Positions 11,102 through 49,267 of a DNA stretch of 64,000 nucleotides are shown here, one piece after another. The translations under genes were made by a program, and so were the position numbers. The stretch spans positions 96,001 through 160,000 of IMG/VR virus record IMGVR_UViG_3300021514_000002, one strand, 5' to 3'. This DNA comes from a virus. Its lineage: Duplodnaviria; Caudoviricetes. Under the pieces are notes generated by a model. The model had not been told where the DNA came from and searched no databases. It saw only the letters and a list, made by a program, of their open reading frames with translations. The first letter of the stretch is position 1, and each line of letters opens with the position of its first letter.

Positions 11102-11635
11102 ATGACTAAAAAGAAAGATATTAAATGGAAATACATGAAGTTAGACGGTGCATTAAACCGTAACTATAAAGTTTCAGATCAAGGCGACATCGTTGCTTCT
11201 ACAACAATGAAACCATTAACCCAGAGCGACATGGGTAAAAAATGTGCAAAGAATGGCACAGATTACAAGAGTGTAAGTATTGTAGGCCGTAAAAATGGAG
11301 TTCGAGTTCACCGTATCGTGTGTGAAACTTTCCGTGGTGCTCCAAAGGGCGATAGAACCCAAGTTGGCCATCTTGACGAACACAAAGATAACAACGCGTT
11401 ATCTAATCTAAAATGGATTTCGCCAACAGAACGCTCCCGCGCTTATTTCGCCAACAACACCCTACCACGTTACACAACCGCTGTTGTTGTCCGTACTAAA
11501 AAGATGATCAACAAAGGTTTAACAAACGATAAAATTGCCCAAAAAACAGGCATGAGCGATTCTAACGTATCTGCGATTAAATTAGGCATCATCCATTCAG
11601 AAGTTAAACCATATACATCAAACCAGTTCGGTTAA
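11102..11635 (+). CDS. HNH endonuclease-like protein with C-terminal HTH
   Basis: VHRIVCETF...VGHLDEHKDNNALSNLKW motif. Confidence 0.75.
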   Translation: MTKKKDIKWKYMKLDGALNRNYKVSDQGDIVASTTMKPLTQSDMGKKCAKNGTDYKSVSIVGRKNGVRVHRIVCETFRGAPKGDRTQVGHLDEHKDNNALSNLKWISPTERSRAYFANNTLPRYTTAVVVRTKKMINKGLTNDKIAQKTGMSDSNVSAIKLGIIHSEVKPYTSNQFG

Positions 11636-42891: not shown

Positions 42892-43395
42892 TCAAGGCAA
42901 AACTTCATTTGACATTCCGCGAAAACGCTCTAATAAAAATAATAAAGAAGCCAACCCAAACAAAAAGTGCGCATGTCTTACTTTTGAATTCGCTTCTTTA
43001 ATTTCGCGTTCTTTGATACTACGTTGTTCTTTTAATTGTTTCCATTTTGCATAACGTTCTGGATTAGATGTTACCCACTTAAATTGATTATGTGATATTG
43101 TTGCGCGTTTACTATTGCAACCATTACATGCACAAGCTATATTAGACTTATGAAGCGTGCCACCTTGCGATCTCGGTAATAAGTGTTCTATGGTAGCAGT
43201 ACGGTGAAATACTTTATGAAATATTTTACGATCAGTCTCAAACCACAAATTCATTTCTCTTTCACACCAATAACATTTACCATCTTGTTTTTCGTATAGG
43301 TTTTTAAGTCGGCGCATATTACTCGACATCTTGAACGTTTTCTTACCAAGTTCAATCTGTAACATGAAATCACGTTGAAATGTAATACCACACAT
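42892..43395 (-). CDS. HNH endonuclease
   Basis: CYWC...TIEHLLPRSQGG...NIACACNGCN. Start probably near MLQIELG or MSSN. Confidence 0.8.
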   Translation of the reverse strand: MCGITFQRDFMLQIELGKKTFKMSSNMRRLKNLYEKQDGKCYWCEREMNLWFETDRKIFHKVFHRTATIEHLLPRSQGGTLHKSNIACACNGCNSKRATISHNQFKWVTSNPERYAKWKQLKEQRSIKEREIKEANSKVRHAHFLFGLASLLFLLERFRGMSNEVLP

Positions 43396-43424: not shown

Positions 43425-43453
43425 ATTATACGTAATTGTAACCTAATTGTCAA
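43425..43453 (-). promoter_or_regulatory. Consensus sigma70 promoter for the HNH gene
   Basis: TTGACA-attaggttacaattacg-TATAAT. Confidence 0.8.
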
Positions 43454-43512: not shown

Positions 43513-44022
43513 TTTGCCTTCTGCCTATACGGCAGTGAACAACTTTGAAGCTATCAAGCTTTTAAGTATTAACTTCTAAGCTGCCTATACGGCAGTGAAC
43601 CTAATAATGTAGCAGTAATTGTTTTGTCGTTCCTTCTAAGCTGCCTATACGGCAGTGAACATGACACAACAGCGAATACACTCGTCTATGTTTCTTCTAA
43701 GCTGCCTATACGGCAGTGAACTGATAGCCGCATACCTAGTGGGTTTTTTGAAAGCTTCTAAGCTGCCTATACGGCAGTGAACATACCATTGGATAGTGGA
43801 ACGGAAAGAGGCACCTTCTAAGCTGCCTATACGGCAGTGAACCTTCCCATACTTCCAACACTTTTAGTTTCGCACTTCTAAGCTGCCTATACGGCAGTGA
43901 ACGATAGAACCTATTCCAGTTATTCCAGTTAATCCTTCTAAGCTGCCTATACGGCAGTGAACATTAGTTACCCATAGGTCTTCTGCACTTGACGCTTCTA
44001 AGCTGCCTATACGGCAGTGAAC
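43513..44022 (-). CRISPR. Type I-F CRISPR array: 8 identical 28-nt repeats plus 1 degenerate trailer repeat; 8 unique spacers (32-33 nt)
   Basis: Repeat GTTCACTGCCGTATAGGCAGCTTAGAAG at 43573, 43633, 43694, 43755, 43815, 43875, 43935 and 43995. Degenerate copy at 43513-43540. Confidence 0.98.
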
Positions 44023-44155
44023 AGGGTGAATTTTACTAAAAACTTAACCAAAACAAACGGTTATAGCGTTTTATACTATTTGACCAATAAAAATCATGTG
44101 ATTCATAACGTATTGATAATGTTAACATTTTATAAATAAAATATTTCATTGGTCA
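44023..44155 (-). promoter_or_regulatory. CRISPR leader with IHF sites and inverted repeats
   Basis: Perfect WATCAANNNNTTR at 44106-44118, near match at 44051-44063, and a 12-bp inverted repeat (44081-44092/44144-44155). Confidence 0.7.
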
Positions 44156-44704
44156 AAACCAAGGTATAGTGGCATTTTTACTTAAACCAAAGCAATCAAA
44201 TTGTCCGACAGTTTGAACTTTTGTTAATTCTCCAAAAGTCAAATATCTGCGATGTTTATGTTTATTAGAATTACTTACTAATTCCATATATGGTTCATCA
44301 AGCCCATGGTTAAACATTTTATTTTTATACAATTTTATATCAGCAGTGGATATTGAGTTTCTTTTAATTAACCGTCGTAATTTAGCTTCAGTCATATTAG
44401 ATTGCTTACGAGAAATTATTCTATAAAGGCCGTTATCTGGTACTTTACGTATAATACCAATTAAACAATATTGCGCCAAATTGCCCAACCATTTAGTATT
44501 TTGGAAGTTTGTTAGTTCGTTTTCATTACCATGAATTCTTAACGTTTTCCCAAGTACTATATTATAATCAGGGAAACTAACGCCAATATTAGATGATTTT
44601 AACGAAAACAATCTCCAATGAAATTTAGTATAAACTTCATTAAGTAATACATTTTGACGAAATTTCTTATTAGGTTGTATTAATATATCGATATAATGTT
44701 TCAT
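44153..44704 (-). CDS. cas6f: Cas6f (Csy4) crRNA-processing endoribonuclease
   Basis: YIDI...IGVSFPDY...LRIHG, RRLIKR, and terminal FDCFGLSK.ATIPWF. The canonical catalytic His position reads FHWRL. Confidence 0.93.
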   Translation of the reverse strand: MKHYIDILIQPNKKFRQNVLLNEVYTKFHWRLFSLKSSNIGVSFPDYNIVLGKTLRIHGNENELTNFQNTKWLGNLAQYCLIGIIRKVPDNGLYRIISRKQSNMTEAKLRRLIKRNSISTADIKLYKNKMFNHGLDEPYMELVSNSNKHKHRRYLTFGELTKVQTVGQFDCFGLSKNATIPWF

Positions 44705-45720
44705 TAGTTTCTCCTTGGACGAGTATCAATATTAGAGACATAAGCCAAGCCTTTTTTACCCAAAGGGAAACTTGACACGCCAGCATTTTCAATCATAGTT
44801 TTTATTTCTGTTGCGTCTTCACGATTAATATCTATATAAATTTCAAGTGTTCCACTGGCTTTGGTTAGCATTGAAACTACTTCACCTTCACCTTTTATTC
44901 TTTCTTTTCGGATATACGGATTACCATATATTTTCTTTTTTTCCCCCGTGGTAAAACGATCCATAAAATCTTTTTTTGTAAAAAGACGTTTAGATATACC
45001 AGATATAACGCCTGTTTTGGTAATAGCGGTAGATATATCAAATGATTCGGAAAGTCTATTTAATTGCAAATAAATGGCAGAACAATATACATTTTCAATA
45101 ACAATTTCGCCTTTATTATTAACATAATTAGTGTCATTAAATTGTGTATCTAAATATTGTATGACTTTTTTTGCCTTACCTTGAACTATAATAGATTTAA
45201 TCTTTCTTAATTCATCAAACTTTTCACAAATTACAATCGGATCAAGTTTAATTAATTTGTCTACTTTGGTATCATCTAAAATGAAAGAATATAATTCATC
45301 AGTATCTAATGCTAATACCCCCCATAATTCTTGTGAATAATCTGATTGAAAAATAACGTCATCGGTCTTAATCATCCCTGTAAAAGAATTTTGATCAGTA
45401 CTGCCTGAAATATTTCGAATATAAGTCATTTCATTAGTTAATTCTGGATTATCCATAAATGTAACTAACTTTTCAATGTCTCGGAAATAATAATCACTTG
45501 TGCTACGGGAATGGTATAACTTTCTTTGATCACCAATAAGACGATTAATTACCCCCATCACAGTATTCAGTGTGATTTCCCGACGAATAAAATTCTTCGA
45601 GGTCTTTAAATTGGTCATTGAAGCAATAAATTTACGCCCCTTTTTAGGTAATGCCACATTATTGTCGCCATCCAGAAACGAATTTCTCCACGATGAATCA
45701 TAATTAATTAATATTTTCAT
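44704..45720 (-). CDS. cas5fv: Cas5fv (type I-F2 Cas5)
   Basis: [42 protein letters not shown] and [10 protein letters not shown] resemble Shewanella-type Cas5fv as recalled; length 338 aa. Confidence 0.9.
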
Positions 45721-45729
45721 ATAAACACC

Positions 45730-46677
45730 CTATTTGGCGTAGAAATAAGATGCAAATTCAGATTCAGGCATCTCCGAGATTTCAGCTTCATTGCGCTTAA
45801 TACGCATCATTTTATTACTATCATTGTAATCAATTAAAATTTCATCAACATACATATATGATTTTGCTTGACGGATAGATAGTTCACTGATCATTTGTAA
45901 AGTGTATTCAATTAACGCTTTTATTGCATCATTATTTAATAAAATACCTACTTCACCCTCTTCAAATATTGTACCTTCACGCACATAGTTCTCATGAAAG
46001 ATAGCCATTGAATTTAATTCAGGATTAAGTGATTTAATATAATTTTGAATAGTTTTCGCAATTGTTTCACCTTCACCCTCTTTGATGGTCATGCTTGCCC
46101 TGCCAAATTTATTATCAAGTGAGATGAATTGTAATTGTTCGATACTAATGGAACCGTAAGAGAGATATTTAGTATCACCAAACGTAGTCTTTGAAAAGAA
46201 CGAAGAGCTATCACGCTCACCAGCTTGTGTCATTTGTTCAAAATTTCCATTGCCTAATTGGTCTACAAAATCTTCCATTAATAACGGGCTGGTTCGTTTA
46301 CGTTGACTAGAGGGTACAACGTAACCACGAATTAATCCTGTCATAGAGGCAAGTACTTCTAATAAGTTATTTTTCGCGGCGTAATGCAAGTCAAATGCTT
46401 GATCACGAAATAAATGATGTCTAACACAGTTTTGACTAATATATAAAGGATTTTCTTTGAAATCAATATCGGTAGCTTCCTTTTTATATTTGTAACCTGT
46501 TTCATCTTTGATCTTTCCTGTTAAATTAGAATAACCACGCAATTTTGGCATTGTATGATTGTTAAAGGTTTTCCCATCATTACCTGTTAAGGTTGTTGGT
46601 CCATTCCAATTAACAACACCGTGTCCTAACGCCGTAATCTTAAAATCAACACTTTTGATGCCTGTTACTTTTTTCAT
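45730..46677 (-). CDS. cas7fv: Cas7fv (type I-F2 backbone)
   Basis: [38 protein letters not shown], and terminal YFYAK; 315 aa. Confidence 0.92.
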
Positions 46678-46681
46678 TTTT

Positions 46682-49267
46682 TCACCCTATTAATATATTT
46701 GAAATTGAACCAATCGGCTGCTTGTCACAAATTGCATAATAAATAGCTGATTGATGTGCTTTTTGTTCGCCACCAATGGCGTTCAAATCTTCTTTTGTGT
46801 AACTTAGATAAATTGGTGTATCTGGATTTCGTGCAGCATTTAATAATATATCTTCATTATACGTTTTTTTCGTTTTTTTGATATTATGATGTTTAGTTAA
46901 CATATATGATAACAGATTATTCTCAGCATTACCATACCCTTTTATTAACCCAACACTTGCTGTTAATCCTATTGTAGTTTGGGTATGATCAGTGTCTTCT
47001 GTATAAGCATACTCATTTGGAAATTCATATTTTTTCGAATTTACTACGCGGCAAATTGCCATTTGTACAAATCTGTTATCACCACGTAAAGAATTATTTT
47101 TAATTTTACTCGTCTGCTTGTTTAATGAAACTTTTTTATGAGGGTAAAATAATGGATCTATTATATTTTGGTTTATAAGTGTTGCACTGTCTTTTAACAT
47201 TAATAATAATTCTTCTTTAATTTCGTTTAAAGATATTTCGTCCTTATAGAATTTTTTATATAACGCATAAAGATAATTAATATCAACAACATTACTGTTA
47301 ACATTGGAACATAAAAAATTATACCATGCTTTAGTGCTTTTTAATAAATTCTGCGTTCTTAAAAACCAACCGGTTTGTCCATTATCTATATTTTCAGGTA
47401 CTACCGTAAGGTATTCATTGATTGTGTTATTTTTACCAAAACGATCTAAACGACCTAACCGCTGTAACCAATTCTCTGCGGTTGTTAATTCTGTTATCAT
47501 GTTATCGCAGCTAATGTTTAATGAGGATTGAATGATAGGTCCACTACGCATTATATCGAATTCACTATTACCACCTTCCTTGAAATTATCCATAATCGTA
47601 TTAAATAATGAAAGTTTATCAGCTTTTTTGAATTTAGAATGAAACAATATACCATTTTCTTGATGCATATTTTTAATAAAACCGAGTTGTGCAGTAATTG
47701 CGGTATTACTAATCACAAACGTATTCTTTTTGAATATTTTTTGTGTTAATAATGAATTATTCACATCATCAATTTTAAAATTTACACGATATTTAGATTT
47801 GTTAAAGCTTTTAATATCAAATATATCACTTGAATCAATTTTTAAGACTTTATTCACAAAATAGTAATTGGGTGTAGCAGATACCAATAATGTATTTGCC
47901 TTATCTCCTTGTAACTTTTTGTTTTCAATTAGTTCTGCAAACAACAAATTAAAGGCTGGCATTGTAATTAATTCATGATATTCATCGAAAATGACATGTG
48001 AATTCATTAAAGTTATTAATGCAGTTATATCAGAATGTGTGGTAATTGTGTTTATCGCGTGATCTATCGTAGTAATAACAATATCCCCTGTGAACATATT
48101 ATGTTCTGCGGTTTCCTGCTCAATGCCATTAGTTTTTGTATTTTTGTACTCACCTGTATAAATTTCTATTCGACTGTTTTTTAAATAATCCAATTGTGAC
48201 AGATCGTGATATAGTCCAAGACACACGTTTACCCGAGGAGCTATCCATATAATTTTCTTAACATTACTGTTGAATGCCCATTCTAGGGCAATTTTAGTTT
48301 TACCACAACCCGCTGGCCCTTCAAGAACTGCAATATCGTTAACATCTTGACATTGTTTTGCCACTACCGCTTGTGCTTTGTTTTGTTGACTATCTGGGTA
48401 TAATATAGTAAAGCCTTCAAGACATTGCGCTATTTCAGTTTGAAGCGTACTATTATTATCCAAATGTTTATTGGTTAAAAAGTTTAAACTTTTATCGTTT
48501 ATACGTGTTGTCAATTCACAAGCTGAAAGTGTTGACACAATTCTATCAGCAGTTATAATAGCAGCCCTGATGATATTTTTATCAGCGTTTTCTTTAATTT
48601 CCCTAGTATAATCATCAATAATATCATTGTTTTCCGAATATTCTTTATAAAGGAGATTTTGTTTTTTTAAAGCGTATACAGCATCCTCAGTTATATCCGT
48701 TACTCGTTTCGGTAATTTGATAACATTATTAGAATAAGTTAAGAGTGAAGAATTTACACTTTCCAATATTTGACTGGCTTCTTTTAGAAATAATTCCATA
48801 TTCATATCAGCATTAAAAGAATTATTGACTTTATTGTAAATTTCAGCTTGATTTTTGTAATTATTCTTTCTTATAGGTTTACTGTGATGCCAGTAAATAC
48901 CATGTGTCGCATAATCAAATTGTTTTGGATTTAATCTTTTATCATTTCGATCATTTAGTAAATTAAATAGAAATAGTGAAATTTCGTTGTGTCTTGGATG
49001 CTTTTCAAAAGAAAATTTGCCCCTGTTGATATGTACCCCATCATTAACATCCACTGCTTTTGAACGAGAGTTTAACCAGTTTTGAAATGCAGGATCTAAT
49101 TTACCGATGTCGTGGAAGCAACCCGCCACCAATGTAGCATATGCTAATTTACTATTATTAGTAAGTTTATTAACAATATCATATCCAATCCACCCAACAG
49201 CAAATAAATGATCGGCAAGTAAATGTTGTTTATCATTAGCATAATATGATATTAAATTATTGGTCAC
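46682..49267 (-). CDS. cas3: Cas3 HD nuclease-SF2 helicase without N-terminal Cas2 domain
   Basis: HLLADH at about residue 15, [21 protein letters not shown] and QRLGRLDR motifs. Confidence 0.92.

What the first reader, a model, noticed from the sequence alone, without database searches (positions are those of the whole stretch)
44023..44155. Leader keeps an IR-IHF-IR adaptation architecture although the locus has no Cas1/Cas2
Seen: a perfect IHF consensus (44106-44118) lies between 12-bp inverted repeats TGACCAAT(A/G)AAA, and a second near-IHF site lies 28 nt from repeat 1. Repeats are identical except the trailer copy. Known: I-F integration requires IHF-bent leaders whose inverted repeats contact Cas1-Cas2/3. 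Inference: the array is still extended in trans by a host I-F adaptation complex.
Basis: partly seen in the sequence, partly recalled or inferred. Interest (0 to 1): 0.6.

Follow-up and report, generated by a model that had tools for sequence, protein, structure and literature searches.

The report
Intact spacer-uptake leader, Cas1-less phage CRISPR
A 363-kb deep-sea phage carries a CRISPR weapon without the enzymes that add new targets, yet the DNA in front of its CRISPR array keeps every docking signal those enzymes need, at exactly the usual distances, so a host cell's enzymes could load it, though this has not been shown.

Summary
The window lies in a 363.5-kb virus record. On the minus strand it carries a type I-F2 (I-Fv) module: cas3 without a Cas2 domain, then cas7fv, cas5fv, cas6f, a leader and 8 spacers. 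I found no Cas1, Cas2 or HU/IHF gene anywhere in the record.

The 135-bp leader has a perfect IHF site at -96..-84 between 14-nt inverted repeats at -135 and -70. A second IHF site with one mismatch lies at -41..-29.

A lone IHF match is not above chance. The arrangement is. In 47 bacterial I-F2 leaders from loci that nearly always carry cas1 and a Cas2 domain, the same motifs sit at the same positions. A matrix built from those leaders ranks the phage leader first of 726,764 positions in the phage genome. An E. coli I-F1 leader has the repeat arms at the same two positions.

So this is a genuine I-F integration-type leader with no visible decay.

The inference that a host Cas1-Cas2/3 still extends the array remains untested. 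I found no related phage, no array variant, no spacer target and no host. Complete I-F2 loci with the identical repeat do exist in metagenomes, so a compatible integrase exists in nature.

Verdict: a new member of a known kind, a Cas1-less CRISPR on a mobile element with a host-compatible leader. Interest is moderate.

The parts
43513..44022 (-). CRISPR array: 8 identical 28-nt I-F-type repeats, 8 spacers (six of 32 nt, two of 33 nt) and a degenerate trailer repeat at 43513-43540
   Evidence: Rfam CRISPR-DR4, 45.6 bits for each full repeat
43995..44022 (-). Repeat 1, the expected integration target. It begins with 5'-GT at the junction with the leader (44022|44023)
   Evidence: The GT requirement is from bioRxiv 10.1101/2023.05.26.542337
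44023..44157 (-). Leader. Position -n from repeat 1 equals window 44022+n
44051..44063 (+). Proximal IHF-like site (-41..-29), one mismatch, on the strand opposite to the array. It sits at the same place as the conserved bacterial proximal motif
   Evidence: (23 of 24 bacterial sites with at most 2 mismatches start at -41)
44079..44092 (.). Proximal arm of the inverted repeat (-70..-57)
   Evidence: (I18)
44106..44118 (-). Distal IHF site (-96..-84), a perfect consensus. Its inferred bend centre near -97 coincides with the symmetry centre of the inverted repeat (-96.5)
   Evidence: The bend-centre offset is taken from my memory of the IHF-H' co-crystal DNA
44144..44157 (.). Distal arm of the inverted repeat (-135..-122). 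It overlaps the cas6f stop codon (44153-44155) and contains a -35-like hexamer
44153..44704 (-). cas6f (183 aa)
   Evidence: PF09618, E 1.7e-49
44704..45720 (-). cas5fv (338 aa)
   Evidence: PF20158, E 1.1e-61; closest relatives about 70% identical
45730..46677 (-). cas7fv (315 aa)
   Evidence: 64-81% identity over the full length to the gene between cas3 and cas5fv in bacterial I-F2 loci. No Pfam hit
46682..49267 (-). cas3 (861 aa) with HD nuclease and helicase domains and no Cas2 domain
   Evidence: Bacterial homologues are about 975 aa and start with PF21384 (Cas3_I-F_Cas2)

Best explanation
The stretch 44023-44157 is a genuine type I-F leader of the I-F2 branch. It carries the full set of signals that direct spacer integration: the distal inverted-repeat arm, the distal IHF site, the proximal arm, the proximal IHF site, and a first repeat that starts with GT. 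All are at the canonical distances.

Proposed mechanism. Host IHF bends the leader at about -97, so that the two arms stand side by side. It bends the leader again at about -29, which loops repeat 1 back. A Cas1-Cas2/3 integrase supplied by a type I-F system of the infected cell then docks. [quoted passage not shown] The phage's own Cas6f, Cas7fv, Cas5fv and Cas3 then use that spacer.

Shown here: the motifs, their phasing, their homology to leaders of bacterial loci with cas1, the absence of adaptation genes in the phage, and the existence of complete I-F2 systems that use the identical repeat.

Inferred, not shown: IHF binding, docking of a host integrase, and any actual spacer gain on the phage.
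For: Motifs and coordinates.

Same positions in bacterial leaders. The distal site starts at -97..-95 in 35 of 47 leaders with at most one mismatch, and at -96 in the phage. The proximal site starts at -41 in 23 of the 24 leaders with at most two mismatches, and at -41 in the phage.

The matrix score is the best in the whole phage genome. It lies inside the bacterial leave-one-out range, with 11 of 47 leaders scoring lower.

Motif quality is at or above the bacterial norm. The distal site is perfect, as in only 17 of 47 leaders. The proximal site has one mismatch, matched or beaten by only 2 of 47. The inverted-repeat score of 11 is exceeded by 4 of 57 leaders.

The rest of the leader has diverged, and the Cas7fv+Cas5fv tree puts the phage on a terminal branch of 0.31, twice the median. 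Neutral DNA would not have kept these motifs over that distance.

An E. coli I-F1 leader has its arms at -132 and -70 and the same two inferred bend centres.

The architecture and the role of Cas2 on the arms are published.

No cas1, cas2 or HU/IHF gene in 363 kb.

The identical 28-nt repeat is used by complete I-F2 loci that have cas1 and a Cas2-Cas3 fusion, L095 and L098.

Precedents: type IV-A3 arrays loaded by host I-E Cas1-Cas2, and huge phages that lack adaptation genes and were proposed to use host Cas proteins (PMC7162821).
Against: There is no direct sign of spacer gain. No second copy of the array exists to compare.

No spacer target was found. So the spacers may have come in with the captured array.

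The host is unknown, and none of 2,464 spacers from the fetched bacterial and metagenome arrays hits the phage.

The phage only partly keeps the conserved box at about -118..-107 of the bacterial leaders, and it lacks the 3' half of the proximal motif.

Covariation between the two arms across leaders is not significant: 57.8% of cells paired against 56.6% in shuffles.

The phage was described as T4-like only in earlier unchecked notes of this scan. If it is lytic, the time for host enzymes to act on a genome copy that is then packaged is short.
Confidence: 0.42

Rival explanations
1. Leftover of a recent capture. The phage took a cas3-to-array block from a bacterial I-F2 locus, or lost cas1 and the Cas2 domain soon after. 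The leader came along intact. It no longer receives spacers, and the motifs have not had time to decay.
For: The leader is plainly homologous to bacterial leaders. No variant array and no target could be found. Composition cannot date the capture: the phage cas7fv+cas5fv genes have GC3 0.24, the 12 lowest and 5 highest bacterial loci that I inspected span GC3 0.18-0.45 (overall GC 30-42%), and the phage's own long ORFs average 0.27. The array is short, at 8 spacers. Huge-phage arrays are typically compact, with a median of six repeats.
Against: No close donor exists among about 2,100 Cas5fv relatives. The best is 70% identical, and every 90% cluster of the phage Cas proteins has one member. 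The phage sits on a long terminal branch. Across about 37 specified motif positions I count at most one or two departures, and the motifs are better than in most loci with cas1. If the motifs are unselected, the loss must be very recent relative to that branch.
Confidence: 0.35
2. The motifs are kept for transcription, not integration. The distal arm supplies a -35 box, and IHF shapes or gates a promoter for the pre-crRNA.
For: A sigma-70-like match on the array strand uses the distal arm as its -35 hexamer, with an 18-nt spacer and a -10-like hexamer; it scores 10 of 12. The bacterial alignment consensus shows a -10-like hexamer just before repeat 1, and the proximal IHF motif could overlap a -35 (my reading of the alignment).
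Against: Promoter-like matches in this AT-rich stretch are at the chance level: 5 found against 4.2 expected. A promoter does not explain the proximal arm, the symmetry about the IHF bend centre, or the exact match to the geometry of the integration complex. The array can also be read through from the cas operon, because no terminator follows cas6f. This role can coexist with the integration role.
Confidence: 0.12
3. Decoy. The leader soaks up host Cas1-Cas2/3 and IHF during infection, so that the host acquires fewer spacers against the phage.
For: Only that the motifs are unusually close to the ideal and that the phage gains nothing from them in cis.
Against: There is one copy per genome (no second high-scoring site), and nothing else points this way. 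This is pure conjecture.
Confidence: 0.03
4. Chance resemblance in AT-rich non-coding DNA.
For: The IHF consensus alone is at chance frequency in the window.
Against: Position-specific agreement with independent bacterial leaders; top matrix score in the genome; no shuffle reaches the inverted repeat.
Confidence: 0.01

Closest known systems
Type I-F leader as seen in the Pseudomonas aeruginosa Cas1-Cas2/3-IHF integration complex (Santiago-Frangos et al., bioRxiv 10.1101/2023.05.26.542337)
   Same: Five elements in the same order: repeat starting with GT, proximal IHF site, proximal inverted-repeat arm, distal IHF site, distal arm, within about 135-150 bp. The arms flank the distal IHF site.
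   Different: No Cas1 or Cas2 is encoded in cis. The arms are longer than the published motif (14 nt against about 10 bp). I did not have the P. aeruginosa leader sequence, so exact spacings were compared with E. coli I-F1 and bacterial I-F2 leaders instead.
Leaders of bacterial type I-F2 (I-Fv) loci, the family of the Shewanella putrefaciens CN-32 system
   Same: Same gene order (cas7fv, cas5fv, cas6f, leader, array). The distal arm overlaps the cas6f stop. IHF sites have the same strand and position (-96 and -41). Arms are at about -135 and -70.
   Different: Bacterial loci have cas1 and a Cas2-Cas3 fusion: 65 and 71 of 80 loci, and most of the rest are cut contigs. The phage has neither. 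The phage only partly keeps the conserved box at about -118..-107 and lacks the 3' half of the proximal motif. Its repeat ends in G where most end in A.
Escherichia coli type I-F1 leader (strain Rb-50, locus L103)
   Same: Arms start at -132 and -70, both with the same ACC...GGT core. IHF sites lie between the arms and near -29.
   Different: Both IHF sites are on the opposite strand. They mirror the phage sites about the same inferred bend centres. The bacterial I-F2 matrix does not score this leader.
Plasmid type IV-A3 arrays loaded in trans by host I-E Cas1-Cas2 (Benz et al., 10.1101/2023.06.23.546257)
   Same: A CRISPR system on a mobile element without adaptation genes, whose leader and repeat resemble those of a chromosomal system that has them.
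   Different: There the loading was shown by experiment and the co-resident host system is known. Here the carrier is a phage, the system is a DNA-degrading I-F2, and neither host nor loading is known.
Huge-phage CRISPR-Cas systems without Cas1, Cas2 and Cas4 (Al-Shayeb et al. 2020, PMC7162821)
   Same: A phage over 200 kb with a compact array, interference genes and no acquisition genes. The proposal that host Cas proteins are used.
   Different: That paper does not mention I-F systems in its main text (0 occurrences of 'I-F'). The passages I retrieved rest the argument on repeat similarity to hosts; I did not search that paper for a leader analysis.
Vibrio phage ICP1 type I-F system
   Same: A phage-borne I-F-family system with its own array.
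   Different: ICP1 carries a complete adaptation module and acquires spacers itself (PMC11656645). It has no DNA match to this locus in the phage collection.

Membership tests
Type I-F integration-type CRISPR leader | Lies directly upstream of repeat 1 of an I-F-type array, on the transcribed strand | tested here: met
Type I-F integration-type CRISPR leader | Two IHF sites, one distal and one proximal to the repeat | tested here: met
   Distal site perfect at -96..-84. Proximal site with one mismatch at -41..-29
Type I-F integration-type CRISPR leader | Two inverted-repeat arms of about 10 bp flanking the distal IHF site | tested here: met
   14-nt arms, 13 of 14 complementary, at -135 and -70. 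No shuffle of 500 reaches this
Type I-F integration-type CRISPR leader | Motif spacing (phasing) as in leaders of loci that have Cas1 | tested here: met
   Same start positions as 47 bacterial I-F2 leaders. Best matrix score in the genome. Same arm positions as E. coli I-F1
Type I-F integration-type CRISPR leader | First repeat begins with 5'-GT | tested here: met
.
Type I-F integration-type CRISPR leader | Supports IHF-dependent integration by Cas1-Cas2/3 | not testable with these tools
   Needs a biochemical or in vivo assay
Type I-F2 (I-Fv) CRISPR-Cas system | Cas5fv, Cas7fv and Cas6f present, with no large subunit | tested here: met
   PF20158 and PF09618. Cas7fv is 64-81% identical to its counterparts in bacterial loci. 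The four genes abut or overlap, leaving no room for a large-subunit gene
Type I-F2 (I-Fv) CRISPR-Cas system | Cas1 and a Cas2-Cas3 fusion encoded in the locus | tested here: not met
   No PF01867 or PF09827 hit, and no tblastn hit at E below 0.1 with seven bacterial Cas1 and Cas2-domain queries, in 363 kb. Cas3 starts after the Cas2 domain
Mobile-element CRISPR arrays loaded in trans by a host adaptation module | Carrier lacks adaptation genes | tested here: met
Mobile-element CRISPR arrays loaded in trans by a host adaptation module | Leader and repeat match those of a co-resident host system that has Cas1 | tested here: inconclusive
   They match bacterial I-F2 systems in general, and the repeat is identical to that of complete loci L095 and L098. 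The host is unknown
Mobile-element CRISPR arrays loaded in trans by a host adaptation module | Spacer content differs at the leader end among related carriers | not testable with these tools
   No related carrier was found.

The most novel reading that the evidence does not exclude
A lytic giant phage uses its host's type I-F Cas1-Cas2/3 and IHF to write new spacers into its own array. Its leader is held by selection at near-ideal motif quality (perfect distal IHF site, unusually long arms), so that it competes well with the host's own leaders for the integrase. This would be the first case of trans-loading of a phage-borne, DNA-degrading type I system.
Probability: 0.4. Interest if true: 0.65.

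Novelty: new member of a known kind. Interest (0 to 1): 0.45.

Why it matters
Most CRISPR systems on huge phages lack acquisition genes, and how their arrays are filled is an open question that so far rests mainly on repeat similarity to hosts. Here the leader gives a sharper, testable handle. All signals known to direct I-F integration are present and correctly phased next to an array whose carrier has no integrase. A short DNA fragment (44017-44167) can be put straight into established Cas1-Cas2/3 plus IHF integration assays. A positive result would extend trans-loading, shown so far for plasmid type IV-A3, to phages and to a nuclease-active type I system. It would also mean that the host's own immune memory machinery can arm a phage. 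A negative result would show that intact leaders can persist as leftovers, which matters for reading such motifs in other orphan arrays.

Tried and rejected
(1) Relatives of the phage locus, to compare arrays. I used the Cas5fv protein and a 24-sequence alignment in viral contigs. I used the neighbouring AAA ATPase and HNH genes in viral contigs. I searched the exact repeat in viral contigs and in metagenomes. The metagenome scan gave 14 contigs, none with this leader or these spacers. The cas6f, cas5fv and cas7fv proteins each form a 90% cluster of one member, and the cas3 sequence is not in the collection at all. Nothing was usable.

(2) The only near relative seen is P0124, a protein at least 90% identical to the HNH protein next to the trailer, on a 3.7-kb contig.

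(3) Spacer targets. I searched the phage's own genome, the GenBank phage collection, and viral contigs with spacers 1 and 2, allowing every sixth base to vary. No target was found.

(4) Host link. 2,464 spacers from the fetched bacterial and metagenome arrays were compared with the phage. Only 17-19-nt chance matches appeared.

(5) Covariation of the two arms across 47 leaders is not significant. I therefore dropped my first impression of compensatory changes.

(6) Dating the capture by base composition is uninformative, because I-F2 cas genes are AT-rich everywhere.

(7) A natural experiment with bacterial loci that lack Cas1. Only L030 lacks cas1 and the Cas2 domain, and its contig shows no array within 600 nt. 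L060 looks interrupted between the Cas2 part and cas3 by a 414-aa ORF on the opposite strand, which I did not identify.

(8) A T4-type late-promoter motif inside the leader is not enriched in the genome: 25+31 copies against about 37+43 expected. Rejected.

(9) An RNA hairpin formed by the arms in a read-through transcript gives z = -1.7, which is unconvincing.

(10) A phage-encoded HU or IHF: none found.

Full report
CONTEXT. The window is bases 96001-160000 of a 363,531-base virus record that CheckV rates complete. Earlier notes of this scan call it a T4-like phage from a deep-sea vent; I did not check that. The minus strand carries four tightly packed genes. cas3 (46682-49267, 861 aa) has HD and helicase domains. 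A 315-aa gene (45730-46677) is 64-81% identical to the Cas7fv gene of bacterial loci. cas5fv (44704-45720) matches PF20158, and cas6f (44153-44704) matches PF09618. This is a type I-F2 (I-Fv) interference module.

Downstream lie the leader and an array of eight identical 28-nt repeats, eight spacers (six of 32 nt, two of 33 nt) and a degenerate trailer repeat. The whole record has no Cas1 (PF01867) and no Cas2 (PF09827). It gives no tblastn hit below E = 0.1 to seven bacterial I-F2 Cas1 proteins or Cas2 domains, and it has no HU/IHF gene. Bacterial homologues of the cas3 gene are about 975 aa. They begin with the I-F Cas2 domain (PF21384) and follow a 315-340-aa Cas1. The phage protein starts just after that domain.

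THE OBSERVATION. I number the leader from repeat 1, so that position -n equals window 44022+n. There is a perfect IHF consensus at -96..-84 (44106-44118, array strand). Inverted-repeat arms of 14 nt with one mismatch sit at -135..-122 and -70..-57. A one-mismatch IHF site lies at -41..-29 on the other strand, 28 nt from repeat 1.

IS IT MORE THAN CHANCE? A single IHF match is not: the consensus occurs 8 times in the window against 9.85 expected. The test that matters uses independent leaders. A scan of one genome per prokaryote species with a Cas5fv alignment gave 80 bacterial I-F2 loci. Of these, 57 had an array with enough upstream sequence to extract a leader. After setting aside ten leaders (seven of a distinct Campylobacterota type and three other outliers), 47 remain. 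In those 47, the distal site starts at -97..-95 in 35 (17 perfect, 18 with one mismatch). The proximal site starts at -41 in 23 of the 24 leaders that have at most two mismatches there. The phage has these sites at -96 and -41.

In random 5-nt position windows of the phage genome, the chance is 3.6e-4 for a perfect site and 7e-3 for a site with at most one mismatch. A position matrix built from 44 non-redundant bacterial leaders, anchored on the repeat without gaps, scores the phage leader 36 bits. That is the highest of 726,764 positions on both strands of the genome; the next is 6.8 bits, and z = 6.8. In leave-one-out scoring, 11 of 47 bacterial leaders score below the phage. None of 500 shuffles of the leader gives an inverted repeat as good in the two position windows, and only 4 of 57 bacterial leaders have a better one. 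The leader is therefore homologous to bacterial I-F2 leaders and in phase with them.

COMPARISON WITH THE STUDIED I-F LEADER. The cryo-EM study of the P. aeruginosa integration complex describes two IHF sites and two inverted repeats in about 150 bp. IHF at the distal site makes a U-turn that presents the two arms as parallel pillars to the Cas2 dimer. The proximal bend loops repeat 1 into a Cas1 active site. The repeat needs little more than a 5'-GT (bioRxiv 10.1101/2023.05.26.542337). The order of elements in the phage is the same.

I fetched an E. coli I-F1 locus. Its leader has arms starting at -132 and -70 with the same ACC...GGT core. It has a perfect IHF site at -109..-97 and a one-mismatch site at -29..-17, both on the opposite strands to the phage sites. 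In the IHF-H' co-crystal DNA the bend centre lies about one base 5' of the consensus; I take this from memory. On that basis the bend centres come out at about -96/-97 and -28/-30 in both leaders, and the first equals the symmetry centre of the arms (-96.5). The phage leader thus fits the geometry of both I-F1 and I-F2 leaders.

WHAT THE DATA SAY ABOUT USE. Three points favour present use or selection. First, the motifs show no decay. They are as good as or better than in loci with cas1, while the rest of the leader has diverged. Second, the phage Cas7fv+Cas5fv lie on a terminal branch of 0.31 substitutions per site, twice the median, with no close relative. The best Cas5fv relative of about 2,100 is 70% identical. 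The cas6f, cas5fv and cas7fv proteins each form a 90% cluster of one member. Third, complete I-F2 loci with cas1 and a Cas2-Cas3 fusion use a repeat identical in all 28 positions (L095 and L098). So integrases that work on this repeat exist.

I could not date the loss, because I-F2 genes are AT-rich in all hosts. I found no second copy of the array, no protospacer and no host. Covariation between the arms across leaders is not significant. The arms therefore rest on a conserved ACC...GGT core plus A/T flanks, and the extra length in the phage is unexplained.

RIVALS. A recent capture with an unused leader is the main rival (0.35). A purely transcriptional role is weak. The best promoter-like match does use the distal arm as a -35 box, but such matches are at the chance level here, and a promoter does not explain the proximal arm or the symmetry. 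A decoy role is conjecture. Chance is excluded.

NOVELTY. Two things are already published: that huge phages mostly lack acquisition genes and may use host Cas proteins (PMC7162821), and that an array on a mobile element can be loaded in trans when its leader and repeat match a host system (10.1101/2023.06.23.546257; review PMC11656645). New here is a phage-borne, nuclease-active I-F2 module whose leader keeps the complete I-F integration architecture. I found no other I-F2 locus in the viral contig collection. I rate it a new member of a known kind, of moderate interest, with a clear bench test.

CAVEATS. The record is a metagenome assembly. The locus is embedded among same-strand genes, and only a few neighbours were examined: an HNH endonuclease and a BCS1-like AAA ATPase. 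GC runs at 30-32% across the cas genes and 33-37% in the flanks. A chimeric join cannot be formally excluded without read data. In my 80 loci only L030 clearly lacks both cas1 and the Cas2 domain. L060 has them, but the Cas2 part and cas3 are separated by a 414-aa ORF on the opposite strand that I did not identify.

Noticed in passing
L016, L019-L023, L034 (leaders, about 150 nt before the first repeat): I-F2 leaders of Campylobacterota keep the two arms (an ACCTTTA...TAAAGGT type) at the usual positions. They have no IHF consensus at either site (3-5 mismatches). A short GC-rich palindrome sits between the arms instead. From general knowledge this phylum has HU but no IHF, so another bending device may replace IHF there.
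   Followed up: partly
window 43425-43453, minus strand: A 12-of-12 sigma-70 consensus promoter with a 17-nt spacer lies right after the array trailer, facing the HNH gene (42892-43395).
   Followed up: no
L103 (E. coli Rb-50) 11290-11460 compared with window 44023-44157: I-F1 and I-F2 leaders have both IHF sites on opposite strands but the same inferred bend centres and the same arm positions. The IR-IHF-IR unit appears to work in either orientation.
   Followed up: partly
alignment A2, columns about 33-44 (positions about -118..-107 of bacterial leaders): There is a strongly conserved box between the distal arm and the distal IHF site in bacterial I-F2 leaders. It is not among the five published motifs. 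The phage keeps only the A-rich part. It may be the A-tract of the IHF site or a -10 element.
   Followed up: no
alignment A2, columns about 84-100: In many bacterial leaders the proximal arm is followed 7-8 nt later by a third copy of the arm core in inverse orientation, which makes a local palindrome. The phage lacks it.
   Followed up: no
L030 3069-5627 and L060 2438-7988: L030 (Thiomargarita) has a Cas3 without a Cas2 domain directly after an enolase gene, with no cas1. It is the only bacterial counterpart of the phage arrangement among the 80 loci. In L060 a 414-aa ORF on the opposite strand lies between the Cas2 part and cas3, probably an insertion; I did not identify it.
   Followed up: partly
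window 42892-43395 (protein P0123) and P0124: The HNH endonuclease next to the trailer has one relative at 90% identity or more, on a 3.7-kb Logan/ENA contig. This is the only trace of a near relative of this genome region.
   Followed up: no
window 44144-44157: The distal arm contains the cas6f stop codon, and the last three codons (Pro-Trp-Phe) are shared with many bacterial loci. Part of the arm is therefore also under coding constraint. Leaders that do not abut cas6f still have the arm.
   Followed up: partly
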